This document shows positions 5,899 through 57,403 of a DNA stretch of 64,000 bases, one piece after another; position 1 is the stretch's first letter, and each line of letters begins with the position of its first letter. Below the pieces are notes generated by a model that worked only from the letters and a program-made list of their open reading frames with translations, searched no databases and had not been told where the DNA came from. The DNA lies in contig JANQND010000011.1 in assembly GCA_028279765.1 (NCBI GenBank), forward strand, positions 30,976 to 94,975, read 5' to 3'. The stretch is from Candidatus Nanoarchaeia archaeon. GTDB taxonomy: Archaea; Nanobdellota; Nanobdellia; Woesearchaeales; WJIZ01. The position numbers were made by a program, and so were the translations under genes.

Positions 5899-5903
5899 AA
5901 ATC

Positions 5904-13179: not shown

Positions 13180-13428
13180 ATGTGTCTTGCGATACCCGGG
13201 AAAGTCATTGAAATAACAGGAGATAAGGCTGTTGCTGATTTTGGGGGATTGAAACGAAAAGTCGATGTTTCCCTTATTGATCAATGCAAGGTAAGTGATT
13301 ACGTCTTAGTCCATGTTGGTTTTGCTATTCAAAAGATTGATGAGCCAACAGCAAGAGAAACCTATCGTCTTCTCTCGGAAATGGATAAGGAAGCAATGAA
13401 CGAAGAGCTGAGGGCAAATCATGAATGA
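13180..13428 (+). CDS. hypC: Hydrogenase maturation factor HypC/HupF
   Basis: MCLAIPGKV... N-terminus, with the essential Cys2 after Met. Size 82 aa. Confidence 0.85.
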   Translation: MCLAIPGKVIEITGDKAVADFGGLKRKVDVSLIDQCKVSDYVLVHVGFAIQKIDEPTARETYRLLSEMDKEAMNEELRANHE

Positions 13429-14434: not shown

Positions 14435-14463
14435 ATAGTAAGTTGATTGGGAACAGATAGTGA

Positions 14464-15504
14464 ATGGATATGAGTGAGAGCATGGCTTCGGAAAAAAAAT
14501 GTTTAACTGGGCAATGCCCTCCTTTGCAAAAGGAAGATGAGCAGGTAGTCAAGCTTAGCGAGGGTTCGGGAGGCAAGGAGATGCACCGGCTTATTGCTGA
14601 GGCAACATCCCACTTTAGTTCTGGAGACTGGAAGCATACTGATGAAGACTCCTCTTTGCTTGCGGTGAATCAGAATAACGTCTTGTTTACTACTGATTCT
14701 TATGTGGTCACTCCTCTTTTTTTCCCCGGAGGAGATATAGGGAAGCTTGCGTTTTGCGGTACGGTCAATGATCTTTCGGTGATGGGCGCAAAGCCACTTG
14801 GGATCTCTCTCGGGCTTATTATTGAGGAAGGATTTTCGAAGTCGGACCTCTTTGCGATACTCAAAACCATCGGGGAGCTTTCTAAGCAGGCCGGAATACC
14901 GATTGCTACTGGTGATACCAAGGTTATGGAGAGAGGATCGGTGGATAAACTTATTATCAATACGAGCGGGATTGGGGTTGCGCAGAATGTTCTCGATGAG
15001 CAGATAGAACCCGGGGACAAGATCATTGTTTCCGGGGGTATCGGCGAGCATGGCACTGCACTTCTTGCAAAACGCTTTGAGCTTGAATCTTCAGTTAAAA
15101 CCGACAGTAAACCACTCTGGGAAGAGATTAACAGTGTCGTACACCTGGTGAAGCAGGCAAAGGATATTACCAGGGGCGGGCTTGCCTCAGTGCTTAATGA
15201 GATTGCACAAAAAGAGAAGAAACAACTGACAATTATTGAAGAGTCTATTCCACTGCTTGGCGAGGTACGGGCATTGACAGAAATTCTGGGCATTGATGCG
15301 TATTCGCTTGCCTGCGAGGGAAGGTTTGTTTGTATTTGCTCTGCAAAACATGCAGATGCTGCTGTTGAAAAACTACGAGTGTTTAATACGATGGCCTGTG
15401 TCGTTGGGGAGGTTCAGGATGGCAGCGATGTTATTGTGCAGACACGATTCGGGAAAAAAATTCTGAGTATGCCCTCGGGCAATATCGTTCCGAGGATTTG
15501 TTAG
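14464..15504 (+). CDS. hypE: Hydrogenase maturation factor HypE (carbamoyl dehydratase)
   Basis: AIR-synthase/PurM-like fold ending in ...PRIC with a C-terminal Cys, as in HypE. Confidence 0.8.
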   Translation: MDMSESMASEKKCLTGQCPPLQKEDEQVVKLSEGSGGKEMHRLIAEATSHFSSGDWKHTDEDSSLLAVNQNNVLFTTDSYVVTPLFFPGGDIGKLAFCGTVNDLSVMGAKPLGISLGLIIEEGFSKSDLFAILKTIGELSKQAGIPIATGDTKVMERGSVDKLIINTSGIGVAQNVLDEQIEPGDKIIVSGGIGEHGTALLAKRFELESSVKTDSKPLWEEINSVVHLVKQAKDITRGGLASVLNEIAQKEKKQLTIIEESIPLLGEVRALTEILGIDAYSLACEGRFVCICSAKHADAAVEKLRVFNTMACVVGEVQDGSDVIVQTRFGKKILSMPSGNIVPRIC

Positions 15505-17645
15505 AAATTAGTTTTCAGATAATAAGCAATTTGTCCGAAACTAATTCCTCCGTCTCCGCTTGGAACCTGCTTATTAAGATATACTCCTTTGTCGATCATA
15601 TAGGAGGACATGATTGTGTTGTATGCACACCCTCCTGAGAAGACTATCGGTTTCTTTTGTTCTGAAGCTATTTCGTGCAATCCTTTTGCAAGATAGAGCT
15701 GAGCGGTAGCTGCAAGCCTTTTCCTGTCTTTTTCTTTGTTTTCGATGAGGTACCTGAATAGAGGGGTAGTGAGTAAAACGTTATTTTCAATGACCGGCTC
15801 CATATCATAGGGTATGGATGAATGCGCTTCCAGCAGCATAGCTGGCCTTCCTTCATAGGTTCTCTCATTGCAAAGTCCCAGCATGAATGCGGCAGCATCT
15901 AAGATTCTCCCGCAGCTACTGGTTAGAGGACAATTGAATTGCTCATTGAGCTGCTTTCTCATTATGGCTAGTTCTTTTTGCGTGAAATAGTTTCGCATGT
16001 GCTTACTGCATTCTTCAGGAGGGAGGAATTTTGACAAAATGGAGAAAAGCATTTTTGCTGGATATTTCGCTGCAGAGTCGCCCCCCAGCTGATAGTGCTG
16101 CTCAAGATGTCCCGTTCGCTTGTTATTGTAAAATACCTCTCCCCCCCATATTGTCTCATCCTCACCGTAGCCTAGTCCATCACAGACGATTGCTGCGAAA
16201 TCTGTTAGATTGTGCTCTTGTGCGACACTGCAGGCATGAGCTTTGTGGTGCTGCACTCTTATCAGCGGAATATTCCACTCTTCTGAGAGTTCCTGTGCAT
16301 ATATCGAGGTATTGTAGGCGGGATGCGCATCTGCAAGTATCACCTCTGGTTTGCACTGAGTAAATGCAAGGAACTTGCTTACCATTTTTTTATAGGAATT
16401 GAAGGTGTTTGCATCTGAGGTTGTCCCCATGTAGGGAGAGAATATTGCTTTCTTGTCTTTGAATAGGCAGAAGGTATTGCTTAATTCTGCTCCCAGAGCG
16501 AGTATCTGTTTATGACATGAGGTTTTTAGGGGGATTGACTGTGGGACAAATCCCCTGCTTCTTCTTATCAGGAGGTTTTTGTTTTGGATGATTTTTACCA
16601 GAGAATCATCAATGGGGTTTTCTATTGGCCTGGTGTGATTGAGAATATTTTGTACGTTCTGCTGGCTGCTTGCGGTGGTGATAGGTTGATCGGAGATATT
16701 TGAGGAGGTCATGACAATAGGCTCACCGATGTAATCAAAAAGAAGGTAGTGAAGAGCGGTATAAGGCAGCATGATCCCAATCGTATCAAGCTCGCTTATT
16801 TCTTTCAGGGATGCTTTCTTTTTGAGAATGAGGATGGGGCGCTGTACGGACTGGAGAATGTCTGCTTCTTTTTTCGATATGTGAGCTATTTTTTTTGCCA
16901 TATCGATGTCTCTGCACATAACGGCGAAGGGTTTATGCGGCCTTGCTGTTATTGCTCTGAGTTCCTTGATTGACTCTTTTTGAAGGCTGCAGGCCAAATG
17001 GAATCCTCCGATTCCTTTTATGGCTACTACTTTGCTATTCTTAATGAGTTTAACCGTTTGCTCTATGAGTTCCAGCTCATTTGCGCTTTTAACTTCTCTC
17101 CCTTCTCTGAATAACTGCAGTCTTGGACCGCAGTTGTGACAGGCAATGGTCTGTGCATGATACCTTCTGTCTTTGGGGTCAGTGTATTCCCTATGGCATT
17201 CCGGGCACATCTCAAAAGAATCCATCGTTATTGTTTTTCGATCGTAGGGGCTTTTTTTTGCGATAGAGAAGCGGGGGCCGCAGTTCGTGCAGGTAGTGAA
17301 GTAGTAGTTGTGCCTTCTGCTTGTACTATCCTTGAGTTCTTTTTGGCAATCTTTGCAGAGGAACAGATCAGGCGGGATCTCAGCAAATCCTTTTCCTTCA
17401 CTTTCTTTTATGGTAAAATCATTGAAGTGTTTTTCTGATGGTTTTACCTCGTATGACTCGATTTTTGCAAGTTCAGGAACACCCTTTAGAATTCGTACAA
17501 ACTTTTCTTTATCGTTTACCTCAACGATCACGCCTCCTCCAGTATTTTGAACATATCCTCTTAGTCCTGCTTTTTTGCAGGCATTATAGATATATGGCCT
17601 AAACCCCACTCCCTGAACGATGCCTTTGATGATAAAGGTGTACAT
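15501..17645 (-). CDS. hypF: Carbamoyltransferase HypF
   Basis: Acylphosphatase-like N-terminus (VQGVGFRPYIY), paired Zn-finger CxxC repeats, a YrdC-like domain and a Kae1-like domain. Size 714 aa. Confidence 0.85.
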   Translation of the reverse strand: MYTFIIKGIVQGVGFRPYIYNACKKAGLRGYVQNTGGGVIVEVNDKEKFVRILKGVPELAKIESYEVKPSEKHFNDFTIKESEGKGFAEIPPDLFLCKDCQKELKDSTSRRHNYYFTTCTNCGPRFSIAKKSPYDRKTITMDSFEMCPECHREYTDPKDRRYHAQTIACHNCGPRLQLFREGREVKSANELELIEQTVKLIKNSKVVAIKGIGGFHLACSLQKESIKELRAITARPHKPFAVMCRDIDMAKKIAHISKKEADILQSVQRPILILKKKASLKEISELDTIGIMLPYTALHYLLFDYIGEPIVMTSSNISDQPITTASSQQNVQNILNHTRPIENPIDDSLVKIIQNKNLLIRRSRGFVPQSIPLKTSCHKQILALGAELSNTFCLFKDKKAIFSPYMGTTSDANTFNSYKKMVSKFLAFTQCKPEVILADAHPAYNTSIYAQELSEEWNIPLIRVQHHKAHACSVAQEHNLTDFAAIVCDGLGYGEDETIWGGEVFYNNKRTGHLEQHYQLGGDSAAKYPAKMLFSILSKFLPPEECSKHMRNYFTQKELAIMRKQLNEQFNCPLTSSCGRILDAAAFMLGLCNERTYEGRPAMLLEAHSSIPYDMEPVIENNVLLTTPLFRYLIENKEKDRKRLAATAQLYLAKGLHEIASEQKKPIVFSGGCAYNTIMSSYMIDKGVYLNKQVPSGDGGISFGQIAYYLKTNF

Positions 17646-20551: not shown

Positions 20552-20646
20552 GGGCTGGTAGTTAAATCTGGAAGCTGGGAACAGTTGGATAATATAACGC
20601 GCCGCTGGCAGCGGTGAGGCTCCGGGTTCAAATCCCGGCCAGTCCA
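20552..20646 (+). tRNA. tRNA-Ala(GGC) with non-canonical intron (about 18-20 nt) in the D-loop
   Basis: Folded by hand. Acceptor GGGCTGG/CCAGTCC with a G3:U70 pair, the alanine identity element. U8-A9, D-stem GTTA/TAAC enclosing a 30-nt loop (normally 8-11), anticodon stem CGCCG/CGGTG, loop CUGGCAG, T-arm CCGGG-TTCAAAT-CCCGG, discriminator A. Confidence 0.65.
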
Positions 20647-26397: not shown

Positions 26398-27282
26398 TTA
26401 AATTTTTGTTAACTGAATGATTTCATCTCCTATGTAGAACGAATTCTCTGCCTGGCTGACCATGCCACCACTTCTCTCAACTAAAGGAGGATGCTCTCTG
26501 AGAACATTAAGCTGCTTGAATTGCTTTAAGGCATAGTTGATTTGTGCTTCTGAGCGCTTGTCTGAGAGCCAGCGCTTGGTGAAGGGAAGGTTTTCGAATC
26601 CGTCGATTTCTTTTTGAATATCCCGCACGAACCCGGTTCTTACAGATTTTTTGCCGACCATTTCAAAGACATTAGGCTCGCCTTGTTCTTGGATGAGACC
26701 AACGCCTGTGCTTGCGAACGGCTCAACAGCAATAAAGCCTTCTTCGAGAACATCGTCTCCTTTTGTGTCATAATTTGGAATAGTTGGTGCGGTATGAATC
26801 CCGTAATGTGCTAGTCCATGGCCAGAGAGATTTCTTACGGGTTGAAATCCTAGGTTTGTTGTGGCATCCTCAATTGCTTTTCCTATTCTTGAAATTTTGA
26901 TGCCTTTTTCCAGGACCTCTGTTGCTGCTTTGAGCGCTTCCTCGCTTGCTTTGAGAAGGTCACTGTAGTTTCCTGAAAGATCAACAGAGCAGGCATTATC
27001 TCCTATGTATCCGTCTACATGGACTCCAACATCAAGACAGCAGATCTGGTCTTCGAAGATGATGGGATCATCTTTTATGGCGCAATAATGCGCAGCAATT
27101 TCATTGCAGCTAATTTGTGGTGGAAAAGCGGGCTTTGCTCCTAATTCTTCTATTTTGTTTTCTATTTTTTGAGTAACATCGAGCATGCCAGCTCCTTTTT
27201 TAATGAGGTCTTTTCCGTATAAAAGAACTTCTTTTGCGATCTTTCCTGCATGCTTATAGTTTTGGAGTACTTCTTCGTCCAT
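26398..27282 (-). CDS. map: Methionine aminopeptidase, type 2 (archaeal)
   Basis: Pita-bread fold with metal ligands (D..D..H..E..E pattern) and a MetAP2-type insertion. Size 294 aa. Confidence 0.85.
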   Translation of the reverse strand: MDEEVLQNYKHAGKIAKEVLLYGKDLIKKGAGMLDVTQKIENKIEELGAKPAFPPQISCNEIAAHYCAIKDDPIIFEDQICCLDVGVHVDGYIGDNACSVDLSGNYSDLLKASEEALKAATEVLEKGIKISRIGKAIEDATTNLGFQPVRNLSGHGLAHYGIHTAPTIPNYDTKGDDVLEEGFIAVEPFASTGVGLIQEQGEPNVFEMVGKKSVRTGFVRDIQKEIDGFENLPFTKRWLSDKRSEAQINYALKQFKQLNVLREHPPLVERSGGMVSQAENSFYIGDEIIQLTKI

Positions 27283-27963: not shown

Positions 27964-29865
27964 CTACTTCAACCGAACCGTATCTAAATTCCTCGGCGCA
28001 GCGGTCTCAATTCTATTTTGCTTGTGAATCGAAGATGCTAAATCAGAACACCGTGAACTCTCGCCGTGGACAATAAGAACTCTTTTCGGTCGCGGATTGC
28101 ATTTATGCACGAAGCTCATCAACTGGTTTCTTCCGGAGTGGCCGGTTAATCCATCAATCGTATGAATTTCTAATTTTACTTTAAGCATATCGGGCTTGGT
28201 TGCCGTACCCATATTGATGTCGCGCTCTCCGCGCTGTATTCGCCTTCCCATAGATCCTTCTCCCTGATAGGATACAAAGGTCATGGTATTCTTTGGATTG
28301 TCTGCAAGATGCTTGAAGTACTCGACAGATGGACCGCCAACAAGCATACCGGAGGTTGCTAAAATTACGCAAGGTCCGGTTTCTTCAATGACTTCCATTC
28401 GCTCTTTTTGCGATCCGATTCGCTTGAACATGGGGTGCAAAAATGGATTATGGTCCTTGTGGAATATGAGTTTTCGAATAGAACTGTTGAGATATTCCGG
28501 ATACGCGGTATGAATTGCAGTAATATCCCATACCATTCCATCAATGATGACAGGAATTTCCTTAATAACATTCGTTCGCACCATCTCTTCGATTACCATC
28601 ATGACTTCCTGCGCTCTTCCTACACCCAGAACCGGGATAAGCACTTTTCCTCCCCTATTAAGAGTGGTACTGATGATATCTTTGATTTGAGCTTCGCACT
28701 CTTTTCTGGTCGGAAGAATATTGTCTCTGCCTCCATATGTCGATTCGATCATTAAGGTTTCTAACCGTGGGAACTCGGAGACCGCAGGCTCTAAGAGCGC
28801 AGTTCTTCCGTATTTCATGTCTGCACCGTAGAGAAGATTATGGAGCCCGTTTCCAATATGAATATGGACCATTGCACTTCCTAAGATATGTCCAGAGTTG
28901 TAGAAGGTGATTCTCATATCCGGCGTAATATCGGTTACTTCATTATAGTCAAGAGTGATGGTTTGCCTTACCGTATTCTTTACTTCTTCAGAAGTATAGA
29001 TGGGTTCTCTTCCTTCATTTCTCATGATTTTAATGAGGTCCAATTGCAGAAGAGACATGACATCTCTTGTAGGAGTGGTACAATAGATCGGTCCACTGTA
29101 TCCGAATTTCACTAAGTAGGGAATTAATGCTGAATGATCAAGATGTGCGTGGCTCACAATGACTGCATCTAATTCGCCTACCTTAAACTCAGGTGCTTCC
29201 AAGTATGGATATGCTTCAGGATTATCAGGAGTAAGCGATGGATCCATTCCGCAATCGAGGAGCACTCGTGATTCCGGGGTATGTAACAGGAAGCATGATC
29301 TTCCAACCTGTCTTCCTGCGCCAAGATAGGTTAATCGTACCCATTCATGCTTTTTCTCCCTCATCCATCCATCGTAGACTCGATGGCCTACTTTATCGAG
29401 GAATTTTCTTCTCCAGTCAGAGTTTTGGTAGAGAACGGAGCGGATGTTCTCGATTAATTTTGATCTAATTGCAGGCTTTCTTCGAATGGTTGGCACCCAC
29501 CTGGTTTTTTCTTTGATTTCTCTAAGCAGAGCTCCCTGCTTTCCGATGGCAAGGCCAGGCTTTTCTGCTTCAATGACCACCATGCTTCTTTGTGGGTCAA
29601 AGATAACCTGATCAATGCCAGCCTCATCAGTGAGAATTCTGCGAATTTCTTTTTCTGCTTCTTCCTGATCGATGGTTATGGATGGATCCGGCCGCAGCTC
29701 GATTCTTTTCTTGACTTTATCGACACACTGCCTAATCAATCCATTGTTATTTAGAAAGAAGTCTTGGTCTTTCGTATATAATACAATATTTGCTCCCTCA
29801 TAGCCTGCTGCTGAGATTTTATCATTAGGCAGGTCCTTGAGGATTTCCTTTATAATGTCAGCCAT
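27964..29865 (-). CDS. aCPSF1/FttA: KH-domain beta-CASP metallo-beta-lactamase ribonuclease (transcription termination factor)
   Basis: N-terminal tandem KH (GKQGALLREIK), MBL motif HAHLDHSALIPY, and beta-CASP motifs. Size 633 aa, typical of aCPSF1. Confidence 0.9.
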   Translation of the reverse strand: MADIIKEILKDLPNDKISAAGYEGANIVLYTKDQDFFLNNNGLIRQCVDKVKKRIELRPDPSITIDQEEAEKEIRRILTDEAGIDQVIFDPQRSMVVIEAEKPGLAIGKQGALLREIKEKTRWVPTIRRKPAIRSKLIENIRSVLYQNSDWRRKFLDKVGHRVYDGWMREKKHEWVRLTYLGAGRQVGRSCFLLHTPESRVLLDCGMDPSLTPDNPEAYPYLEAPEFKVGELDAVIVSHAHLDHSALIPYLVKFGYSGPIYCTTPTRDVMSLLQLDLIKIMRNEGREPIYTSEEVKNTVRQTITLDYNEVTDITPDMRITFYNSGHILGSAMVHIHIGNGLHNLLYGADMKYGRTALLEPAVSEFPRLETLMIESTYGGRDNILPTRKECEAQIKDIISTTLNRGGKVLIPVLGVGRAQEVMMVIEEMVRTNVIKEIPVIIDGMVWDITAIHTAYPEYLNSSIRKLIFHKDHNPFLHPMFKRIGSQKERMEVIEETGPCVILATSGMLVGGPSVEYFKHLADNPKNTMTFVSYQGEGSMGRRIQRGERDINMGTATKPDMLKVKLEIHTIDGLTGHSGRNQLMSFVHKCNPRPKRVLIVHGESSRCSDLASSIHKQNRIETAAPRNLDTVRLK

Positions 29866-29911: not shown

Positions 29912-30550
29912 TTATTCAATCTTATAGGCAAGTTCCTGCGTTGGCAGGTTATTTACGCCCTCTTTGGTTATTACTGCAATATCGACTCCGTTACCTGAGG
30001 CAACGTCTCGCTGTACTGCAGAGTTAATTGCTTTCTTTGCTACATCCACTGCAAGGTCTGTAGTCATCTCATTCTGGCATAACGCTTCCAGAACTCCATA
30101 GGCCATAACGCTTCCAGAGCCTGAAGATACGAAATCATCGCACTCCATGACGGAACCATCTGCGCCTACATCATAAATATGAAATCCGTACTCATCAACA
30201 CCGGCAACCAGAAAATGGCTTACTCCCGGAATAGTACTGAATTTTCTGATATTGCCATAAACAAGTGATCCTAATAGGTGAACAACTTCCTTTACTGTTG
30301 ATGTTCTGCCTGATCTAATGTCTTTAAGGCTGATTTCTGCCTTGAGAATATTTGCCATTAGCTGAATATCAGAGACCGTACCTGCAGTGGTAACGGAAAT
30401 ATTTGGCGTGATTTGCAGAATCTTGGTTACTTTCTTATGTGCGACTAAATATCCTGCTGTTGCCCGTTTGTCTGCTGCTAATACTACACCGTCTTTGCAT
30501 TTAATAGCAAGCGTTGTAGTTCCTGTTTTTACTATGTTTTCTTGTGCCAT
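29912..30550 (-). CDS. psmB: Proteasome subunit beta
   Basis: Propeptide followed by the catalytic TGTTT N-terminus (MAQENIVK/TGTTTLAIKCKDGVVLAADKR). Confidence 0.9.
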   Translation of the reverse strand: MAQENIVKTGTTTLAIKCKDGVVLAADKRATAGYLVAHKKVTKILQITPNISVTTAGTVSDIQLMANILKAEISLKDIRSGRTSTVKEVVHLLGSLVYGNIRKFSTIPGVSHFLVAGVDEYGFHIYDVGADGSVMECDDFVSSGSGSVMAYGVLEALCQNEMTTDLAVDVAKKAINSAVQRDVASGNGVDIAVITKEGVNNLPTQELAYKIE

Positions 30551-30711: not shown

Positions 30712-31053
30712 ATGATTTACCCTATATACATAATAGGATGCGCAATTATTTTCATTAGTCTTTACATTAAATGGTTTCGAGAGACCCAAATTATTATAGA
30801 TTATGCTAGACAAAAATATGCTAAAGAATCAGGAGAATTACCCAGGTATGCCTCACTACTGCCTAGCTTGTCATTTAGATACTCAAAGCCCCAAAACAAT
30901 TGGAGAGAGTTACTTAGAAAGCACCCTCAGGATGAGAGGCTACGCAGTGTTAATAGGATTATCCTCAAGTATGGATTGATTAGCTTCTTGGTTTACATCT
31001 TGTTTACTGCTTTTGTGTTTGGTATCGGCTTTCTCTTCTCCACACACATTTGA
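30712..31053 (+). CDS. small membrane protein, hypothetical
   Basis: Two TM segments flank a basic loop. Confidence 0.4.
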   Translation: MIYPIYIIGCAIIFISLYIKWFRETQIIIDYARQKYAKESGELPRYASLLPSLSFRYSKPQNNWRELLRKHPQDERLRSVNRIILKYGLISFLVYILFTAFVFGIGFLFSTHI

Positions 31054-31074: not shown

Positions 31075-31443
31075 CTAATCCTTACACTCCTGGCACGTGC
31101 CCCTCACTTCAATTTGAAATGAGGAAATCGTTCCGGGGATCTTACTTTTAAGAAAATCAATGGAGTCTACATCAAAATGAATTACTTGGCCTGTTTTCTC
31201 ACAAATATAATGACAATGGCTTTTCTTGTTATTCGAATAAATAGTGCGCCGATCACACAGATAGGAATGAATGCTGCTTTGCTTTTTTAGATGATTGAGG
31301 TATCGATAAATCGTTGCAATACCAATAGAGGAGTCTTTCTTTTTTACTTTTTCGAGGAGCGATTCAGCAGTAAAGAAATCGGTCAGCTTGTCTATTTCTT
31401 TTTGAATGAGTTCTTTTTGTTTTGTATTTCGTGATTTTTTCAT
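31075..31443 (-). CDS. Fur-family metalloregulator (likely Zur)
   Basis: RNTKQKELI...IATIYRYL wHTH, with HxH and CxxC metal sites (HCHYIC, CQEC). Divergent from the COG0523 GTPase and near znuABC. Confidence 0.75.
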   Translation of the reverse strand: MKKSRNTKQKELIQKEIDKLTDFFTAESLLEKVKKKDSSIGIATIYRYLNHLKKQSSIHSYLCDRRTIYSNNKKSHCHYICEKTGQVIHFDVDSIDFLKSKIPGTISSFQIEVRGTCQECKD

Positions 31444-31518
31444 GGTCTTATTGACATACTCCTTACTGATACTGAAAATCGCTAAGTATTATAAATATTG
31501 CCTATTTACGCTTAAAAC

Positions 31519-32493
31519 ATGAAGAAAATACCTATCACATTAATCACTGGATTTTTAGGTGCGGGGAAAAGTACTTTTGTGAACAGAATTCTTAAAGAAA
31601 GACCTGATATTAAGTTTGGGCTTATCCTTAATGAGTTTGGCGATGTTAAATTAGAAAGCCAGATTGTTGAAGCAAAGGAGGATGAAATAGTTGAGCTTGA
31701 AAATGGGTGCATGTGCTGTGTTGGTCGCTCTGATATTGTTGACAGCGTAGTAAATATTCTTAGAGCTCAACCTCAGTTAGATCATATTATTATAGAAGCA
31801 TCGGGCCTCTCCGATCCTGTTCCGATTGCGCAAACCTTAATGACTATGCCAAGATCAACTGAATTTGACCTGAAGGTTAATCTTGAGACCATTATTTGCA
31901 TTGTTGATGCCCTTAATTTCAGTTTTGCTGAGCAAGATTTCATTATAACAACAAAACAGCTAGAGTTTGCCAGCTTTATTGTTTTTACGAAAACCAAGGA
32001 AGCAGGCATTGAACAAACCGAAAAGGTCCGAGCGCAGATTCAGGCATTAGCTGGCAGAGTGTCATTTCATGATTATGAGGCACTTGACCTTGATGATCTT
32101 CTGGACTGCTCTACTGTCGATCATTCTGATATTGCAGCGCTTGAGATCGAACATGGTCATCATGGAAAAGACACCAAGCATAAACATCATCATGTACATG
32201 AGCATGTAACCAAACTCTTCTACAAGTCAAAAAAACCTCTTGATTATAAGAAATTTTTAGATTTTCTCCAAAGCTTCCCGCAAGAAATCATTCGCGCAAA
32301 AGGTATCGTGCATTTCCCCGGCAAGCACTCTGAACTAAAAGTAGTAGTGCAGTGCGTGGGATCACGAAGGGATGGCATTTTGCAGAACTGGAAGGAAGGC
32401 GAAGAAAAACAGAATGCCATTGTTTTTTTGGGCAAGGAATTTGATAAGCAGGCAGTGGAAGATGCGCTGAAAGCGTGTGAGGAACAGAGCTAA
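31519..32493 (+). CDS. COG0523/CobW-family G3E GTPase (zinc metallochaperone ZigA/YciC-like)
   Basis: P-loop GFLGAGKST, CxCC motif GCMCCV, and a His-rich stretch [18 protein letters not shown]. Confidence 0.85.
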
Positions 32494-32622
32494 TTTCTTA
32501 CTGAAAATCTCTAGCGAGGTTTTCAATTCCAAAAATTTGCTTAGACAGCTAATGAACAAATTTTTGTTATTGATAATGAGCATCAATAACACTTATATAA
32601 TTAGGTTCTCCTAACTGACTCA

Positions 32623-34863
32623 GTGGTTGAGGCACTAACAGTATCTGAGACAGAAATCGAGGGCATTCCTTCTCTTATTGATGATCTTTCACAGACAATA
32701 GACAAGAAATCTTCGGATAGAGCCAGTTTGCGAAAGTCACCAATCTCTCATAAGAAGGAGAAGACAAAAAAGAAGAAAGGAAAAAAGAAAAAAACAGTTG
32801 AAAAAGCTGAAGAATTAAAGGAACCTACGAAGGAGTCAAAAAAAGAGAAGTCCAGAAAAAATACAAAGAACAAAAAAAAGAAATCAGAAAAAAAATCCTC
32901 CTCTGAAAAGGATTCATCAGATGAAGGATCAGAAAATTCAAACCATATTAGCATAACCTATACCAGGGAGAAGCAACTAGCTGCGTATAGGTCATCTACT
33001 TCTGAAGTACACTCGAACGAAAGCCAGCATCAATTTTACCGCACTTCCAAAGAAACACATCTGGGACTACTCACAGAGACGGATCATGTACTTATTGATT
33101 ATGTGTCGGGAGACAAACAACTGTCTATGCAGTACGATCGAATTGAGCAAGTTAGTCAAAAAACGAGCACCAGTAATTATGAGTCATTAGATCAGGCGAT
33201 TCATATTGATGCTGCAACTCGTGAAACCAAAACCATAGAGGAAAAAACGGTTAGATACCAGTCTGTAGACCAATCCACAGAAGCAATTACGATAGCTCAC
33301 AGTCAGGATAGTTCTCTTGAATCAACAGTGGTGGAGTATTCGTCATCACAGTCAGTTTCAGTTGTTAGCACAGACATAGCAACTCACACTGATCAGGGAG
33401 AATCTCACCTCTACCAGCAGCAGAATCAACAGAGTGAAAATGTGCAGGCAAGTGATGCTGCACCATATTCAGGCTCTTCATCTCAGGCTTCTGCAAACGA
33501 ACAAGTACATGCGGAGACTACTACTGCTCCGACACAAGATCTTTCTCTTGAGCAGGCTGCCGCTGCTTATACAGCTTCCGACTCTTCTGCTTTGTCCAGT
33601 TCTGATCCTTTGGTTCTTGCTACTGAAGAACCTGCAGCATCTCACTATCAGGCTGGTGCAGAGAGCACCACTACCGCTGCTCCTACTCAAGACTTTACCC
33701 TTGAGCAAGCCGCTATTGCCTATACAAACTCCGATACTATTGATATTGCTAGTTTTGATTCTGCTTTACAGGTTACTGAACAACAGATAGAAACTCAGTA
33801 CCAAGCTAATACAGAGGGCACTACTATCACTGCCCCTTCACAGGACCTAACGCTTGAGCAGGCTGCCACTGCTTATACAAACTCCGCTACTTTTGATCTT
33901 GCTAATTTTGATTCAGCTTTGGAGGCTACTGAACATTTACGAGATTCAAATCAAGGAGTGCAGGTCTCGCAAGAATTGGAACAGATTACTCAAAAGGAGG
34001 CGGTCCAATATCAAACAGGACAAACCAGTCAACAAGCTGAAACTCAGACAGTTGTACAAGATTCTCAGCAACAAAATGAAAGATATAGCAGTGGCAGTAA
34101 CAATCTTGAGCAAATAACAGTAGCTCCTTCTGGTGATAAGGAAATCCAATCAGTTCAGAATAAAACTGCATCAGCCAACGTAGAGGTGCAAAAGGAGAGT
34201 AATTACCGGTCAAGCGAGGCAGCTTCCAATGCCAGTGAAACAACACCTGTATATCGAGATTCTCAGTCACAGACTACAGCCGCCCAAAGTAGCTATAGGG
34301 AATCTTCTTCGTCCATTGATCAGGTGACAGGATCAACACCGTATACTCGGGAATCATCAGGAAGTCCAGAATCAGGATACAAGTCTCAATCAAGTAGCTA
34401 TACTCAAACTGAAACCTCGACTTCTTCATCAACTGTTGAAGTAGTGACCAGTATAGATGAAGTCACTGATAAAGCTCAAGACAACTATTCAGCTGAACCC
34501 TCTCTTGGAGAGCATGGCCATAACGGTCAAGATGATGGCCCGATGTATAATGGGGGAGAAGGGGATCATCCATATGATGGCGGTTGTGGGTGTGGTGCTT
34601 GCGCGACAGCTGGCTCTTCTCCTGTTGTATCCATGACGGAAGAGGGCGAAAAAGCGTATACTTCAGCGACAGAATTTAGCAATACTTCTCATAATTCAGA
34701 TAACGGGCAACCTGACTCGGGAGGAGATTATTCAGCTGATGCCCTGGCGGATATATTTAATATAGATATTGGGGCAAATGTTGATGATGCCAAAAAAGAC
34801 GCAGATCTTTGTGGCTGTGGTTGCGGAACGGAAGTTTACAAATCCTTAGAACCAATGCAGTAA
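32623..34863 (+). CDS. large intrinsically disordered K-rich/acidic Ser-Thr-Gln-rich repeat protein with C-terminal CGCG motifs
   Basis: 746-aa ORF from an apparent GTG start about 25 nt after a TATA-like box. Lys-rich N-terminal region, three imperfect 48-aa tandem repeats (TTAPTQDLSLEQAAAAYT...), C-terminal GGCGCGAC and CGCGCGTE. No signal peptide seen. Confidence 0.55.
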   Translation: MVEALTVSETEIEGIPSLIDDLSQTIDKKSSDRASLRKSPISHKKEKTKKKKGKKKKTVEKAEELKEPTKESKKEKSRKNTKNKKKKSEKKSSSEKDSSDEGSENSNHISITYTREKQLAAYRSSTSEVHSNESQHQFYRTSKETHLGLLTETDHVLIDYVSGDKQLSMQYDRIEQVSQKTSTSNYESLDQAIHIDAATRETKTIEEKTVRYQSVDQSTEAITIAHSQDSSLESTVVEYSSSQSVSVVSTDIATHTDQGESHLYQQQNQQSENVQASDAAPYSGSSSQASANEQVHAETTTAPTQDLSLEQAAAAYTASDSSALSSSDPLVLATEEPAASHYQAGAESTTTAAPTQDFTLEQAAIAYTNSDTIDIASFDSALQVTEQQIETQYQANTEGTTITAPSQDLTLEQAATAYTNSATFDLANFDSALEATEHLRDSNQGVQVSQELEQITQKEAVQYQTGQTSQQAETQTVVQDSQQQNERYSSGSNNLEQITVAPSGDKEIQSVQNKTASANVEVQKESNYRSSEAASNASETTPVYRDSQSQTTAAQSSYRESSSSIDQVTGSTPYTRESSGSPESGYKSQSSSYTQTETSTSSSTVEVVTSIDEVTDKAQDNYSAEPSLGEHGHNGQDDGPMYNGGEGDHPYDGGCGCGACATAGSSPVVSMTEEGEKAYTSATEFSNTSHNSDNGQPDSGGDYSADALADIFNIDIGANVDDAKKDADLCGCGCGTEVYKSLEPMQ
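33520..33960 (+). repeat. three imperfect tandem repeats of about 145 nt within the coding sequence
   Basis: Repeated units begin actactgctccgacacaagatctttctcttgagcaggctgcc, actaccgctgctcctactcaagactttacccttgagcaagccgct, and actatcactgccccttcacaggacctaacgcttgagcaggctgcc. Confidence 0.7.
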
Positions 34864-34930
34864 GTAGTATGAGCTTATTGATAATGACAATCAACAAGCT
34901 TATTAAATAGCTATTTGTTTCTTTCTAAAA

Positions 34931-35959
34931 ATGATAATTGATCTAGAGCATAGTGCTAAACTAGTTGAAGATAAGCTTACTGGGGTAAGTAGTATTGACG
35001 AGGTGACAACTAACGCAGCACAGATAATTCTAACTTTGGCGCCCGATAAAGACAGAACAAATACAATTGATGAAACATTTGAACCAGCTACAAATTTGTT
35101 GAATATTCAGGAGGCATTAAATGCAATAGGATTCACTTTCGCAAAAGAGGTATCACCTTATCTCAGCTCGAACTCAGATAACGATAATGCTAAGAAAATT
35201 AATTACTGGTTCCAGCAAATTGGTCCTGTATTAAAAACAACAACAGACCAGATAAAAAAAGCCGGAAATGGATTTTGCAACCAGTCGATGATTCTTGAAG
35301 ATTTTGTCTCCGTTCAGGAAAAACCAAAAATATTGACAGAACAAGGGATGACGAGATATGCTGCAGAGCATTGGGACCATTATGTGGCAGATGGAACAAC
35401 ATCCACCATCAAGATATCACTTGATAAAAGGAAAGGTAAAGAGCCCAAGTTGGCTGATTTGGCTAATCGAGATGCGATATATCAGCAAAGATTTTTTGAA
35501 TGGAGTGAACAGAAAAATTGCTTAGATAGAGGACTGGAGGATGTTTCTTCTCATTGCCATGCTTCAGATCTAAAGTTAACACCCCCGACGCAGAAAAATA
35601 GCATGTATGAACTCATGGACACTGAACTTGCTCACTTACGTGATGCAGCCTATGTGGCTGCTCCACATGGCAGTTTAATACTTGCACAGTACGACAATGC
35701 GTGTACTAATGGAGCAGTCAACGGAACTACTCAATCCGAAAGACAAGCAGCAGGAATTGGCTCTTCACTAGTTGCAGATAGGATGTTTGCCTTGTCAGGA
35801 TTTTTTGGGACCCTTAGCGGCGGATTAACTGATCAGGCAAAAGCTGCTAAAACAGGTCTAATGAAAATCTCTCATTATATGGCTGCTATGGGTACTTACA
35901 TGACTGCATCACTTGATGCTATGGGACCTGTTATCAAATCAGTACCATTTGGGGAGTAA
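34931..35959 (+). CDS. hypothetical protein (342 aa)
   Basis: No recognisable motifs. Co-directional with and immediately downstream of the disordered repeat protein. Confidence 0.45.
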   Translation: MIIDLEHSAKLVEDKLTGVSSIDEVTTNAAQIILTLAPDKDRTNTIDETFEPATNLLNIQEALNAIGFTFAKEVSPYLSSNSDNDNAKKINYWFQQIGPVLKTTTDQIKKAGNGFCNQSMILEDFVSVQEKPKILTEQGMTRYAAEHWDHYVADGTTSTIKISLDKRKGKEPKLADLANRDAIYQQRFFEWSEQKNCLDRGLEDVSSHCHASDLKLTPPTQKNSMYELMDTELAHLRDAAYVAAPHGSLILAQYDNACTNGAVNGTTQSERQAAGIGSSLVADRMFALSGFFGTLSGGLTDQAKAAKTGLMKISHYMAAMGTYMTASLDAMGPVIKSVPFGE

Positions 35960-36094: not shown

Positions 36095-36115
36095 ATTCTT
36101 ATTGAGAGTAAGAAT
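36095..36115. promoter_or_regulatory. 7-7-7 palindrome ATTCTTA-n7-TAAGAAT upstream of znuA (candidate Zur operator)
   Basis: Perfect 7-bp inverted arms abutting a TATA-like atatatttaaat box, about 70 nt upstream of the znuA start. Confidence 0.35.
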
Positions 36116-36184
36116 CAGTAATATATTTAAATGCTGTTGATTTCATTCGTCCCTAAGACTGAATACTATTCAGGGGGTTTTACA

Positions 36185-37309
36185 ATGAAAAAAACAATAC
36201 TATTACTATTTACCTTGGTTGCTCTCTTTCTTTTTGGATGCAGCCAAGCAACCGTTACTCAGGCGCCTGAGAAACAGGGAGATAAGCTTACGGTTGTTAC
36301 CACGTTATTTCCTTTGTACGAATTTGCCAGGGAAATCGGCGGCGATAATGTTGACGTAACGCTGCTTTTGCCACCGGGTGTTGAGCCTCATTCTTTTGAG
36401 CCAAAACCAAGTGATATTAAGAAAATTGAAAATGCTGATGCTTTCTTGTATATTGGCGAGATTATGGAGCCCTGGGCTCATGATATTCTTGAAGGGTTAA
36501 GCAATAAAGATCTTCAGGTTGTTGATGCCAGTAGCTTAGTGACACTTCTGGAAAGCAATCATGATGATCACGATGAACATGGACATGAAGAACATGGTGA
36601 TGAACATGATCACGCGGAAGACCATGCAGAGGAACACCATGATGAAGAACACGGTCATGATCATAAAGAAGAAGATCTTATGCACGATGAACACGATCAT
36701 GAAGATGAACATGGAGATGAAGGTCATATGCATGATGAGCACGAAGAAGAGGGGCACGATCATCACAACCACGGAGCATTTGATCCGCACATCTGGCTTG
36801 ACCTAGAAAAGGATCAGAAGATAGTTGCAGAAATTGCCAAAGTGTTTAGTTTGCTGGATAATGCGAATGCAGATGTGTATCAGACTAATGCAAATGCATA
36901 TATTGCAAAATTGATAGCTCTTGATGAGCGATACAAAACAGAATTGGCCTCTTGCAGCCATGATGAATTCCTTGTTGGAGGACACAATTTCTTTGGATAT
37001 ATTGAGCATCGGTACAACATTGAAGGAATTCCTGCTATCGAGAATCTTGCACCAAAAACCGAACCTACGCCAAAAAGGATCCAGGAGATTACAGATATTG
37101 CAAATGAGCACGGAATTAAGCATATTCTCACTGAGGTGCTCGTGAGCAAACAAATGGCAGAGGCAATCGCCTCAGAGTCAGGAGCAGAGGTTCTCGTATT
37201 CCATCCGGCACCAAATCTACCTAAAGCAGATTTGGATCGGGGTGTTACTTTTCTTTCGGTAATGGAGGAAAACCTTGAAACCCTGAAGACGGCACTGGAG
37301 TGCAGTTAG
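36185..37309 (+). CDS. znuA: Zinc ABC transporter substrate-binding lipoprotein ZnuA-like
   Basis: Signal peptide with lipobox-like LFGC, TroA-like SBP, and a long His/Asp/Glu-rich loop characteristic of ZnuA. Start trimmed to MKKTILLL. Confidence 0.85.
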   Translation: MKKTILLLFTLVALFLFGCSQATVTQAPEKQGDKLTVVTTLFPLYEFAREIGGDNVDVTLLLPPGVEPHSFEPKPSDIKKIENADAFLYIGEIMEPWAHDILEGLSNKDLQVVDASSLVTLLESNHDDHDEHGHEEHGDEHDHAEDHAEEHHDEEHGHDHKEEDLMHDEHDHEDEHGDEGHMHDEHEEEGHDHHNHGAFDPHIWLDLEKDQKIVAEIAKVFSLLDNANADVYQTNANAYIAKLIALDERYKTELASCSHDEFLVGGHNFFGYIEHRYNIEGIPAIENLAPKTEPTPKRIQEITDIANEHGIKHILTEVLVSKQMAEAIASESGAEVLVFHPAPNLPKADLDRGVTFLSVMEENLETLKTALECS

Positions 37310-38089
37310 ATGGACAGTCTTGTCGACATTAGGAACCTAAGTTTTCATTTCGGAAGCACGACTGTGCTTTCCAATATTAGTTTTTCCATCAACAAAGGAG
37401 ACTTTGTGGGATTAATAGGCCCTAATGGTTCGGGCAAGACAACGCTGATCAAACTGCTGCTTGGATTATACAAGATCCAAAAAGGAATAATCAGGATTAA
37501 TGGAAAAGAGATTTCTCATTTTTCTGATTGGGGAACCATTGGTTATGTGCCTCAAAAGGTTACGAACTTTTCAGATACCTTTCCAGCTACTGTTCAGGAG
37601 ATAGTCCTGACAGGTTGCCTTTCGAATAAGAAATTTCCTAGAAGATATACTTCTGAGGATCGCAAGACAACACTTGATGCTTTAAAGAAAGTTGAAATGC
37701 AAGGATTCCTCAACAGACGAATCGGGGAGCTTTCGGGAGGACAGCAGCAGCGGGTTTTCATTGCCCGAGCTTTGGTAACCAGGCCTGATCTCTTAATTCT
37801 TGATGAACCCACGACTGGTGTAGATCAAGTGACACAGAACAAGTTTTATGATATGCTTGGTGCATTGAACAAAGAGGGAATCAGCATAGTTCTTGTTTCT
37901 CATGATCTCGGGAGAATTACGCGACATGTTACCAAAGTTGCCAGCCTCAATAAAAAACTTGATTTTTACGGAACTCATGAAGAATTTTGCAGCCACCCGG
38001 ATCATGATGCAGATCATCACTGCTTAACTATCAAGCATGGGTCTGATTGTAAAGAACCCCACTGCGCAAAGGAGTCACCAAGATGCTAG
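37310..38089 (+). CDS. znuC: Zinc ABC transporter ATP-binding protein ZnuC-like
   Basis: Walker A GPNGSGKTT, signature LSGGQQQRV, Walker B LLILDEP. The C-terminus is Cys/His-rich (HPDHDADHHC...CKEPHC). Confidence 0.85.
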   Translation: MDSLVDIRNLSFHFGSTTVLSNISFSINKGDFVGLIGPNGSGKTTLIKLLLGLYKIQKGIIRINGKEISHFSDWGTIGYVPQKVTNFSDTFPATVQEIVLTGCLSNKKFPRRYTSEDRKTTLDALKKVEMQGFLNRRIGELSGGQQQRVFIARALVTRPDLLILDEPTTGVDQVTQNKFYDMLGALNKEGISIVLVSHDLGRITRHVTKVASLNKKLDFYGTHEEFCSHPDHDADHHCLTIKHGSDCKEPHCAKESPRC

Positions 38090-38922
38090 AATTATTTCAG
38101 TATGCGTTTATGCAAAAGGCTTTCATAACAGGAATCGTGATTGCCATAGCTTGCTCATTGCTCGGAGTATTTTTAGTTCTTCGAAGATATGCGCTGATGG
38201 GCGATGGTATTGCGCATATTGCATTTGGGGGTGTAGCAACCGGTTTGCTGTTCAACCTCACCCCGTTTTTAGGAGCCCTGCTCTTCTCACTTGTTGGGTC
38301 ACTTGGCATTCTTAAAATTAAAGAAAAAACCAATTTGTATGGGGACTCTGCAATAGGGATCGTCAGCCATGCAGGTTTAGGCATAGGAATATTTATTTTG
38401 TCTGTTGCCAATGGCTTTAATGTAGATATACTCAGCTATCTTTTTGGAAGCATTCTTGCTATACGGCAAAGTGAGATGATTCTATCTATTATTCTTGCCA
38501 TTATTGTCATTGGAGTTATCTATCTCTTTTATAATGAATTATTCTCCATGACCTTTGATGAGAACTCGTCCAAAACGTTTGGAATAAAGACAAGTCTTCT
38601 CAACACTCTCCTGATACTCCTCACTGCACTTACTATTGTGAGTTCCATGAGAGTGGTTGGCCTAATGCTTGCCTCATCGCTTATCATACTACCGGCATCT
38701 TCGGCGCTACAGCTGAAGTTAAGCTTCAGAAATACATTGATTGCATCAGTAGGCATTGCCGTATTGAGTGTGGTTCTGGGATTGTGTTTAGCTTATTGGT
38801 TTGATTTTGCGGTATCAGGAACGATTGTCCTGCTTAATGCAGTGTTTTTTCTTTTCATACAGATTGTTAAAATGAGTTTTAGACTGTATTCAGGCGTTCT
38901 TTCAGTATCCAATAATGATTAA
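38083..38922 (+). CDS. znuB: Zinc ABC transporter permease ZnuB-like
   Basis: Polytopic ABC-3 family permease. Overlaps znuC. Confidence 0.8.
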   Translation: MLELFQYAFMQKAFITGIVIAIACSLLGVFLVLRRYALMGDGIAHIAFGGVATGLLFNLTPFLGALLFSLVGSLGILKIKEKTNLYGDSAIGIVSHAGLGIGIFILSVANGFNVDILSYLFGSILAIRQSEMILSIILAIIVIGVIYLFYNELFSMTFDENSSKTFGIKTSLLNTLLILLTALTIVSSMRVVGLMLASSLIILPASSALQLKLSFRNTLIASVGIAVLSVVLGLCLAYWFDFAVSGTIVLLNAVFFLFIQIVKMSFRLYSGVLSVSNND

Positions 38923-57383: not shown

Positions 57384-57403
57384 TTCGAGGTGCAAGAACT
57401 TAA

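What the first reader, a model, noticed from the sequence alone, without database searches (positions are those of the whole stretch)
32623..35959. Unusual disordered K-rich/acidic tandem-repeat protein with C-terminal CGCG motifs plus an unknown partner, embedded in the zinc-homeostasis locus
A Zur-like Fur regulator and a COG0523 zinc metallochaperone are separated from znuABC by two co-directional genes with no recognisable domains. The 746-aa product has a poly-Lys N-terminal region (KKKKGKKKK...). It then has a long Ser/Thr/Gln/Asp/Glu-rich body with three 48-aa tandem repeats. It ends with two closely spaced Cys clusters, DGGCGCGAC and DLCGCGCGTE, that look like metal-binding knuckles. 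It has no signal peptide and appears to start at GTG. Its position inside a putative Zur regulon suggests a zinc-responsive function such as metal storage or buffering. It could equally be a chromatin or RNA-binding disordered protein. I know of no characterised family with this composition.
Basis: partly seen in the sequence, partly recalled or inferred. Interest (0 to 1): 0.6.

Follow-up and report, generated by a model that had tools for sequence, protein, structure and literature searches.

The report
Zinc-starvation gene pair in an archaeon
Two genes with no known relatives, one encoding a long floppy acidic protein that ends in two cysteine knuckles and the other a helical protein with a Cys/His loop, each sit behind their own copy of the zinc-repressor binding site of an uncultured archaeon, so they are very probably switched on by zinc starvation and may handle zinc, though what they do is untested.

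Summary
ORF746 (32623-34863) and ORF342 (34931-35959) lie between a Fur-family regulator plus a COG0523 GTPase and znuABC.

ORF746:
- Lys-rich patch near the N-terminus, net charge -58, Ser/Thr/Gln-rich and predicted disordered.
- Three repeats of about 51 aa (not 48).
- Only six Cys, in CGCGAC and CGCGCG.

New evidence: a 23-nt palindrome, TTATTGA-N8-ATCANTAA, occurs four times in the 64-kb window. All four are in this locus. Each abuts a TATA-like box. Three of them end 33 nt before the start codon of cobW, ORF746 or ORF342, which fits leaderless promoters; the fourth precedes znuA.

The same box lies next to 45-61% identical Fur homologues in 34 metagenome loci. The gene on the other side is a ZIP or Znu zinc importer in 29 of 31 readable cases, so it is a Zur box.

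ORF342 has only two detectable relatives among about 15 billion proteins. One of them keeps the box, has HHHHHHH where ORF342 has SSHCHAS, and follows a gene ending in CCPGC.

Best reading: a rare gene pair, apparently restricted to Woesearchaeota-like archaea, recruited into the Zur regulon. It probably handles metal alongside COG0523. The regulation is well supported; the biochemistry is inference. Neither protein matches any known family, and the structure models are unusable.

The parts
31075..31443 (-). Fur-family regulator (122 aa), inferred Zur
   Evidence: Pfam FUR 8.5e-19. 45-61% identical homologues lie next to the same box and zinc importers in 34 metagenome loci.
31463..31485 (.). 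Zur box 1 (TTACTGATACTGAAAATCGCTAA) in the zur/cobW divergent promoter. It ends 33 nt before the cobW ATG and lies 19 nt from the zur ATG.
   Evidence: 24.7 bits.
31519..32493 (+). COG0523 G3E GTPase with GCMCC motif and His-rich linker
   Evidence: cobW 9e-44, CobW_C 2e-18. Partial match to ZigA, 1.6e-40, below the curated cutoff.
32567..32589 (.). Zur box 2 (TTATTGATAATGAGCATCAATAA), perfect palindrome arms
   Evidence: 29.0 bits, the best in the window.
32593..32600 (+). TATA-like box TTATATAA, centred about 26 nt before the GTG at 32623. Predicts a leaderless mRNA.
   Evidence: Read directly. The same spacing occurs in related loci.
32623..34863 (+). ORF746: acidic (net -58), Ser/Thr/Gln-rich, predicted disordered protein
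   Evidence: Intact in an independent Logan assembly.
32749..32916 (+). Lys-rich patch of ORF746 (about aa 43-98)
33493..33957 (+). Three repeats of about 51 aa (aa 291-445), core APTQDLTLEQAAxAYTNS
   Evidence: TRF period 153, alignment, dN/dS 0.18-0.49 between copies.
34585..34602 (+). Cys cluster 1, CGCGAC (C655, C657, C660), preceded by GEHGH and GDHPYD
34810..34824 (+). Cys cluster 2, CGCGC (C730, C732, C734), 12 aa from the C-terminus
   Evidence: The upstream gene fragment in L003 ends with the analogous ...CCPGC...YK....
34875..34897 (.). Zur box 3 (TTATTGATAATGACAATCAACAA), followed by TATA-like TTATTAAATA at 34900-34909. It ends 33 nt before the ATG.
   Evidence: 27.7 bits. Homologous box in L003 at 80-102.
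34931..35959 (+). ORF342: soluble protein predicted to be all-alpha, founder of a three-member family
35519..35560 (+). Cys/His loop of ORF342 (C197 ... S-S-H-C-H-A). It aligns with HHHHHHH of P0007, after the shared CLxRG anchor.
36099..36121 (.). Zur box 4 (TTATTGAGAGTAAGAATCAGTAA), abutting an AT-rich TATA-like stretch upstream of znuA
   Evidence: 24.6 bits.
36185..37309 (+). ZnuA substrate-binding lipoprotein with a long His/Asp/Glu loop. The likely true start is MKKTILL...LFGC, as in the Logan gene call of 374 aa.
   Evidence: Pfam ZnuA 1.3e-71.
37310..38089 (+). ZnuC ATPase
   Evidence: ABC_tran.
38083..38922 (+). ZnuB permease
   Evidence: ABC-3.

Best explanation
ORF746 and ORF342 are real protein-coding genes. 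They form a rare gene pair, apparently restricted to Woesearchaeota-type archaea, that has been recruited into the zinc-uptake-regulator (Zur) regulon.

Regulation:
- Each gene has its own promoter. A 23-bp Zur box abuts the TATA box and ends 33 nt before the start codon, which predicts leaderless mRNAs.
- With zinc bound, Zur would sit over the BRE/TATA region and block TBP/TFB.
- When zinc runs short, cobW, ORF746, ORF342 and znuABC would be derepressed together.

Proteins:
- Both are cytoplasmic.
- ORF746 is a polyanionic disordered chain with a Lys-rich patch, Tyr-punctuated S/T/Q repeats and two C-terminal Cys3 knuckles.
- ORF342 is helical, with a Cys/His loop.

Most likely role: they bind zinc through these sites and work with the neighbouring COG0523 GTPase to capture, hold or hand over scarce zinc. 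This resembles the disordered CxxCGC-bearing extension of HypB and the His/Cys tail of SlyD, which serve the related G3E GTPase domain in nickel delivery.

My estimates: shown by computation are real genes (about 0.95) and Zur-box control (about 0.85). Inferred are metal binding (about 0.5) and cooperation with COG0523 in hand-off (about 0.25). The overall confidence of 0.45 refers to 'Zur-controlled and metal-binding' taken together.
For: Operator:
- The box occurs four times in the window, all in this locus and all in promoters. 0 of 100 shuffles reached that count.
- The PWM scores are 24.6-29.0 bits, against 10.8 for the next best site.
- In a metagenome scan, 36 of about 120 box-bearing loci encode a 45-61% identical Fur homologue. 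In 34 of them the box touches or lies within 120 nt of that gene's start.
- The divergent gene is ZIP in 21, ZnuA in 7 and ZnuC in 1 of the 31 readable cases.
- The distance from the end of the box to the start codon peaks at 31-33 nt in those loci. It is 33 nt for cobW, ORF746 and ORF342.

Conservation of the pair:
- The homologue P0007 (29% identity, E 2.6e-22) is preceded by TTATTGATAATCAAAATCAATAA (24.4 bits, next best 5.1).
- Upstream of that box is a gene fragment ending CCPGCLDGTGHMDTYKVETLDKAA*.
- P0007 has HHHHHHH aligned to the SSHCHAS of ORF342.

Coding evidence:
- The ORF746 repeats have dN/dS of 0.18-0.49.
- A second assembly has the ORF intact.
- The N-termini of ORF342 and P0007 align from residue 1.

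Other:
- The Cys clustering is non-random.
- Neither protein has a membrane-helix-like segment.
- Precedent for a Cys3 CxxCGC site in a disordered region of a G3E GTPase, binding Ni(II) and Zn(II) and cooperating with SlyD: PMC12284835.
Against: - There are no expression or metal-binding data.
- Only three ORF342-family members were found among about 15 billion proteins. No full-length ORF746 homologue was found.
- The third member (L004, Woesearchaeota) is followed by an unknown gene and FEN1, not by zinc genes. Its upstream side is missing.
- Related Zur loci have zur next to znuA or a ZIP gene and lack cobW and both ORFs. The pair is therefore dispensable for zinc uptake.
- The Cys motifs differ from HypB's. 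They are C-terminal and in reversed order, and cannot use the N-terminal amine.
- Six Cys in 746 residues is a small capacity for a buffer.
- The AF2 models are uninformative, with pLDDT of 34.6 and 40.0.
- Making a zinc-binding sink during starvation is not obviously useful.
Confidence: 0.45

Rival explanations
1. The pair is Zur-regulated but does not handle metal. ORF746 would use its Lys-rich patch and disordered acidic body to bind ribosomes, RNA or DNA during zinc starvation. Possible roles are stabilising or hibernating zinc-depleted ribosomes, or replacing a zinc-dependent factor. ORF342 would be its partner.
For: - The Lys-rich segment has 26 K+R in 56 aa.
- ORF746 has a disordered, eukaryote-like low-complexity body.
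- Zur regulons commonly include zinc-sparing ribosomal paralogues, and a COG0523-like ribosome-hibernation recruiter exists as NCBIfam model NF047431 (weak match to it).
Against: - All Cys of ORF746 are concentrated in two terminal knuckles.
- The L003 upstream gene keeps a Cys cluster at the same place.
- The ORF342 family has a Cys/His or poly-His loop.
- A net charge of -58 disfavours nucleic-acid binding overall.
Confidence: 0.2
2. The pair is a host-interaction or surface-acting factor of a DPANN-type symbiont. Zinc starvation would serve only as the cue, as with Fur- or Zur-controlled virulence factors in bacteria. The amphipathic Gly/Ala-rich C-terminal helices of ORF342 would act on membranes.
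For: - One family member is annotated as Candidatus Woesearchaeota.
- The family is tiny and fast-evolving.
- The conserved C-terminal part of ORF342 is rich in small and hydrophobic residues.
- There is precedent for Zur control of a toxin in UPEC (PMC5916954, title and abstract seen).
Against: - Neither protein has a signal peptide or membrane helix.
- No secretion genes lie nearby.
- The window encodes purine and histidyl-tRNA functions and hydrogenase maturation, so an obligate symbiont is not established.
Confidence: 0.1
3. The pair is a metallothionein-like zinc store made when zinc is plentiful, with Zur acting as an activator at these two promoters.
For: - The C-terminus has Cys clusters.
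- From my own knowledge: Zur activates a metallothionein gene in a marine cyanobacterium and an efflux gene in Xanthomonas (the latter is PMC2490734, listed).
Against: - The box position relative to the TATA box and the start codon is identical at ORF746, ORF342 and cobW, and matches the zinc importers in related loci. The direction of control should therefore be the same, namely repression.
- Cys content is only 0.8%.
Confidence: 0.05
4. ORF746 and/or ORF342 are spurious or decaying open reading frames.
For: There are almost no homologues, no domains and low-confidence structure models.
Against: - A stop-free frame of 746 codons in DNA of about 40% GC.
- Purifying selection between the repeats.
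- A homologue at 29% identity, E 2.6e-22.
- Dedicated promoters with a conserved operator.
- The ORF is intact in a second assembly.
Confidence: 0.02

Closest known systems
Zur regulons of bacteria (znuABC, COG0523 proteins such as ZigA/ZagA/YciC, ZinT, zinc-independent paralogues)
   Same: A Fur-family repressor, a palindromic AT-rich operator overlapping the core promoter, and co-regulated high-affinity uptake genes and a COG0523 GTPase, with lineage-specific accessory genes carrying their own box.
   Different: The host is an archaeon. The box abuts a TATA box in promoters that appear leaderless. The two accessory proteins have no counterpart in any described Zur regulon. In 2009 archaeal genomes were reported to lack Fur/Zur (PMC2770081).
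HypB disordered N-terminal extension (CxxCGC) with SlyD in nickel delivery
   Same: A three-Cys motif containing CGC sits inside an intrinsically disordered region, next to His/Asp/Glu ancillary ligands. It is associated with a G3E-family GTPase, and a second His/Cys-bearing partner is present (PMC12284835).
   Different: Here the motif is on a separate 746-aa polypeptide. It is C-terminal and in reversed order (CGCxxC, CxCxC), so it cannot use the N-terminal amine. The context is zinc, not nickel. There is no sequence homology.
Metallothioneins (SmtA/BmtA type)
   Same: CxC-type cysteine motifs and a link to zinc homeostasis.
   Different: Metallothioneins are small and 15-30% Cys, and are usually induced by metal excess. 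ORF746 is 746 aa and 0.8% Cys, and is predicted to be induced by starvation.
Prion-like low-complexity domains (FUS-type S/G/Y/Q regions)
   Same: 29 Tyr are spread along an S/T/Q-rich sequence poor in hydrophobic residues. 24 of the 29 are followed by S/T/Q/R/K.
   Different: This is a resemblance in composition only. ORF746 is strongly acidic and poor in Gly outside the C-terminus. No assembly behaviour was tested.

Membership tests
Zur regulon of this archaeal clade | Promoter carries the operator that precedes zinc importers and the zur gene in related genomes | tested here: met
   Boxes at 32567-89 and 34875-97 score 29.0 and 27.7 bits. The same box lies next to a ZIP or Znu gene in 29 of 31 related loci.
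Zur regulon of this archaeal clade | Operator position relative to the core promoter matches the bona fide targets | tested here: met
   The end of the box is 33 nt from the start codon for cobW, ORF746 and ORF342. The mode is 31-33 nt in relatives.
Zur regulon of this archaeal clade | Operator conserved upstream of orthologues | tested here: met
   L003 has the box at 80-102, upstream of P0007. This rests on a single case, because the L004 upstream region is missing.
Zur regulon of this archaeal clade | Zinc-dependent Zur binding and zinc-responsive transcription | not testable with these tools
   Needs EMSA or footprinting and RNA measurements.
Metallothionein | Small protein with high Cys content (about 15-30%) forming metal-thiolate clusters | tested here: not met
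   746 aa with 6 Cys, or 0.8%.
HypB-type CxxCGC high-affinity site | CxxCGC at the extreme N-terminus, using the amino terminus plus three thiolates | tested here: not met
   The motifs are CGCGAC (aa 655-660) and CGCGC (aa 730-734), near the C-terminus. The definition is taken from PMC12284835.
Any curated protein family (Pfam, NCBIfam, PHROGs, PADLOC, PDB sequences) | Significant profile match | tested here: not met
   The PDB hits to the A1 profile are His-tags.
COG0523 (neighbouring gene 31519-32493) | G3E P-loop domain, CxCC motif, CobW_C domain, His-rich stretch | tested here: met
   cobW 9e-44, CobW_C 2e-18. GCMCC and [18 protein letters not shown] are visible.
Fur family, Zur subtype (gene 31075-31443) | Fur domain, and a regulon made of zinc uptake genes | tested here: met
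   Pfam FUR 8.5e-19. No NCBIfam equivalog reaches its cutoff. Zinc specificity is inferred from the ZIP and Znu targets.
Secreted or membrane proteins | Signal peptide or transmembrane helix | tested here: not met
   The maximum 19-residue Kyte-Doolittle mean is 0.87 for ORF746 and 1.07 for ORF342.

The most novel reading that the evidence does not exclude
ORF746 is a new kind of prokaryotic metal-allocation organiser. It would be a zinc-starvation-induced, Tyr-punctuated polyampholyte scaffold. Its C-terminal Cys3 knuckles would form zinc-bridged ('zinc clasp'-like) contacts with the Cys/His loop of ORF342 and with COG0523. Assembly or condensation of the complex would then itself report and distribute scarce zinc.
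Probability: 0.08. Interest if true: 0.8.

Novelty: new variant of a known kind. Interest (0 to 1): 0.5.

Why it matters
Zinc homeostasis in archaea is barely charted. A 2009 survey found no Fur/Zur in archaeal genomes (PMC2770081).

This locus gives three things:
- A defined archaeal Zur operator, recurring in dozens of environmental genomes with a fixed leaderless-promoter geometry.
- Two previously unseen proteins that this operator places in the zinc-starvation response, next to a COG0523 metallochaperone whose clients are unknown.
- If the Cys knuckles and the Cys/His loop bind zinc, a stand-alone disordered accessory factor for a G3E GTPase. That would make COG0523 function testable in a minimal system.

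The very narrow distribution limits the general importance.

Tried and rejected
Searches that found nothing useful:
- Word-indexed searches of 5.8 billion protein clusters with ORF342, with ORF746 and with the three-sequence profile A1 found only the query itself or P0007. For ORF746 only the 8000 candidates sharing most words were scored, so its 'no homologue' result is weak.
- The GTDB genome scan with COG0523 returned only an irrelevant clostridial hit, so the source genome is not in that collection.
- Exact-sequence look-ups of ORF342 and of the window version of ORF746 found no record.
- The viral contig scan with A1 found nothing.
- The 24-aa fragment from L003 is not in the protein collection.
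- Literature searches for the run and assembly accessions, and for disordered proteins in Zur regulons, found nothing relevant.

Structure:
- The AF2 models of ORF342 (three-sequence alignment, pLDDT 34.6) and ORF746 (single sequence, pLDDT 40.0) are too poor, so I ran no fold searches.

Ideas rejected:
- Homology between ORF746 and ORF342. Only a short shared SIDEVT peptide was found, at E 0.7.
- Phage or defence origin.
- ORF746-like proteins in the 120 box-bearing loci.

Error corrected: my first box pattern had the wrong spacer (N9) and found only chance hits. The N8 pattern is correct.
Full report
**1. What is there**

The window is archaeal chromosome. An aCPSF1-type KH/beta-CASP nuclease (27964-29865), a proteasome beta subunit (29912-30550), deoxyhypusine synthase and other housekeeping genes surround the locus.

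The locus reads as follows:
- a Fur-family gene at 31075-31443(-)
- a COG0523 GTPase at 31519-32493(+)
- ORF746 at 32623-34863(+)
- ORF342 at 34931-35959(+)
- znuA, znuC and znuB at 36185-38922

GC content is uniform across the region. Nothing nearby suggests a mobile element.

**2. The observation checks out**

ORF746 starts at a GTG, the first possible start after the upstream stop. It has these features:
- A Lys-rich patch at aa 45-100, with 26 K+R.
- A net charge of -58, with 34% S+T+Q against 15.6 +/- 4% for the other long ORFs, and 14.6% hydrophobic residues against 30.2 +/- 4.6%.
- Three repeats of about 51 aa at aa 291-445. The nucleotide period is 153, so the unit is not 48 aa.
- Exactly six Cys, as CGCGAC (655-660) and CGCGC (730-734). 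Two such triplets arose in 10 of 200,000 random placements.
- 29 Tyr spread along the chain, often 25-27 residues apart. 24 of the 29 are followed by S/T/Q/R/K (binomial p of about 9e-6).

Single-sequence AF2 predicts mostly coil. It shows helices at 15-34 and 427-489 only, which is weak evidence.

Neither protein has a segment hydrophobic enough for a signal peptide or a membrane helix.

Neither matches Pfam, NCBIfam, PHROGs, PADLOC or PDB sequences.

**3. They are real genes**

- The three ORF746 repeats have diverged at synonymous sites (pS 0.46-0.53) while keeping the peptide core. dN/dS is 0.36-0.49 overall and 0.18-0.31 in the first 25 codons.
- An independent Logan assembly (SRR20820735) carries the same locus. 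It has one difference in 22 kb, S110N in ORF746.
- ORF342 has a homologue at 29% identity, E 2.6e-22, that aligns from residue 1. It also has a C-terminal fragment homologue.

**4. The key new result: a shared operator**

Reading the intergenic DNA shows a 23-nt palindrome, TTATTGA-N8-ATCANTAA, upstream of cobW, ORF746, ORF342 and znuA.
- With up to two mismatches it occurs four times in 64 kb, only at these sites. 0 of 100 shuffles reached that count.
- A PWM gives 24.6-29.0 bits for the four sites and 10.8 for the next best.
- Each box is followed within 0-3 nt by a TATA-like element.
- For cobW, ORF746 and ORF342 the box ends exactly 33 nt before the start codon. That places the TATA centre about 26 nt upstream of the start codon. 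This is the geometry of a leaderless archaeal promoter, and it supports the GTG start.
- znuA instead has a Shine-Dalgarno-like GGGGG before the internal start MKKTILL (36185), which carries a lipobox.

**5. The box is a Zur box**

- 36 of them encode a 45-61% identical homologue of the window's Fur-family protein. In 34 of these the box touches or lies within 120 nt upstream of that gene.
- The gene on the other side of the box was readable in 31 loci. It is a ZIP zinc transporter in 21 (Pfam Zip, E of about 1e-40 to 1e-45), ZnuA in 7 and ZnuC in 1. In the other 2 it is a small His-rich membrane protein.
- The distance from the box to the start codon peaks at 31-33 nt.

The regulator is therefore a Zur, and the box is its operator. 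Binding over the BRE/TATA region should block pre-initiation complex formation. That step follows from general knowledge of archaeal repressors and was not tested here.

In 2009 archaeal genomes were reported to lack Fur/Zur (PMC2770081).

**6. Relatives and synteny**

The ORF342 family has three members among about 15 billion proteins.

P0007 lies on a 1.1-kb Logan contig (L003, 26.5% GC).
- It is preceded by TTATTGATAATCAAAATCAATAA plus an AT-rich TATA-like stretch. The box scores 24.4 bits, with the next best site at 5.1.
- Upstream of that is the end of a gene reading ...CCPGCLDGTGHMDTYKVETLDKAA*.
- This is three Cys within five residues about 20 aa from the C-terminus, then a YK. It resembles the ORF746 ending ...DLCGCGCGTEVYKSLEPMQ*.
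- By my rough estimate, chance would give such a cluster in a 24-aa fragment about 1 time in 1,000 to 10,000.
- P0007 has HHHHHHH where ORF342 has SSHCHAS, five residues after the shared CLxRG anchor. C258 is invariant in all three sequences.

P0008 is annotated as Candidatus Woesearchaeota.
- It is truncated at a contig start.
- It is followed by an unknown Q-rich gene and FEN1, with no box downstream.

In the 45-61% identical Zur loci, zur sits directly beside znuA or a ZIP gene. None of them carries cobW, an ORF342-like gene or an ORF746-like gene. So cobW-ORF746-ORF342 is a lineage-specific block between zur and znuABC, and each gene has acquired its own box.

**7. Mechanism**

Shown by computation:
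- Both are real genes.
- Both are under Zur-box control.
- The Cys cluster at the end of the upstream gene is conserved in the one case available.
- ORF342 and its homologue have a Cys/His or poly-His loop.

Inferred:
- Both proteins bind zinc, and they cooperate with the COG0523 GTPase.
- The closest working analogy is nickel delivery in E. coli. There a disordered extension of the G3E GTPase HypB carries a CxxCGC site that binds Ni(II) and Zn(II). The His/Cys-rich tail of SlyD feeds it (PMC12284835).
- Membership in that family fails. The motifs here are C-terminal and in reversed order, and there is no homology.
- Metallothionein membership also fails, because Cys is only 0.8% of the protein.

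A role in hand-off or allocation fits induction by starvation better than bulk storage does.

Rival readings are:
- A non-metal role on ribosomes or nucleic acids, through the Lys-rich patch.
- A symbiont host-interaction factor that uses zinc starvation as a cue.
- A zinc store activated by Zur at high zinc, which the identical promoter geometry argues against.
- Spurious ORFs, which are effectively excluded.

**8. Limits**

- There are no expression, binding or structural data.
- The AF2 models are unusable.
- ORF746 was not searched exhaustively.
- The source genome could not be retrieved.
- The phylum of the window itself is not established. Only one family member is annotated, as Woesearchaeota.

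**9. Verdict**

- The zinc-regulon interpretation is strongly supported at the level of regulation. It is plausible but unproven at the level of biochemistry.
- This is a new, very narrowly distributed protein pair in a known kind of regulatory system.
- A by-product is a well-supported archaeal Zur operator.
- Interest is moderate, at 0.5.

Noticed in passing
L005-L124 (for example L012 2488-5803, L072 451-1600): A conserved archaeal-type Zur module. A Fur homologue of about 120 aa is transcribed divergently from a ZIP or ZnuA gene. The 23-nt box lies between them, 31-33 nt before the transporter's start codon. It was seen in more than 30 environmental contigs with GC of 25-48%.
   Followed up: partly
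L094 833-1190 and L120 696-1120: Small His-rich membrane proteins (107 and 131 aa) with no Pfam match sit directly under the Zur box, where ZIP or ZnuA sits in other loci. They may be unknown zinc-uptake or zinc-binding components.
   Followed up: partly
L014, L034, L043, L046, L061, L095, L118, L122: The same palindrome lies 11-76 nt upstream of much more distant Fur-family genes (25-32% identity). One of these contigs has 66% GC. The box type is therefore shared beyond this clade.
   Followed up: no
window 32950-32952 (ORF746 codon 110): The only difference between the window and the independent Logan contig over 22,241 bases is a non-synonymous change in ORF746: Ser in the window and the NCBI protein, Asn in the Logan assembly.
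   Followed up: yes
window 26398-27282 (-): An M24 (methionine-aminopeptidase-type) peptidase lies 4 kb from the COG0523 gene. From my own knowledge, eukaryotic COG0523 (ZNG1) metallates METAP1. There is no Zur box here, so this is probably coincidence.
   Followed up: no
window 13421-17645: A [NiFe]-hydrogenase maturation cluster: hypD, a hypE-like AIR-synthase-family gene, and hypF on the opposite strand. The organism therefore has hydrogenase metabolism. No hypB was examined.
   Followed up: no
window 12971-13074 and 20578-20646: Rfam finds a 104-nt tRNA, probably intron-containing, that ARAGORN misses. ARAGORN finds a tRNA-Ala(GGC) that did not appear in the Rfam gathering-threshold list.
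   Followed up: no
window 9115-11040 (-): A Ski2/Mtr4-like DEAD-box helicase with a DSHCT (NUC185) C-terminal domain. From my own knowledge this domain is best known from eukaryotic exosome helicases.
   Followed up: no
window 55383-59644: Two adjacent large NosD/right-handed beta-helix proteins (666 and 746 aa). The second also has a Laminin_G_3 domain. They are probably surface proteins.
   Followed up: no
window 30712-31053 (+): A 113-aa ORF with two hydrophobic stretches and no Pfam match lies between the proteasome beta gene and zur. It has no Zur box.
   Followed up: no
L004 542-1978: In the Woesearchaeota contig the ORF342 homologue is followed by a 478-aa protein with a long Gln/Pro/Ala-rich low-complexity centre and no domain on record.
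   Followed up: no
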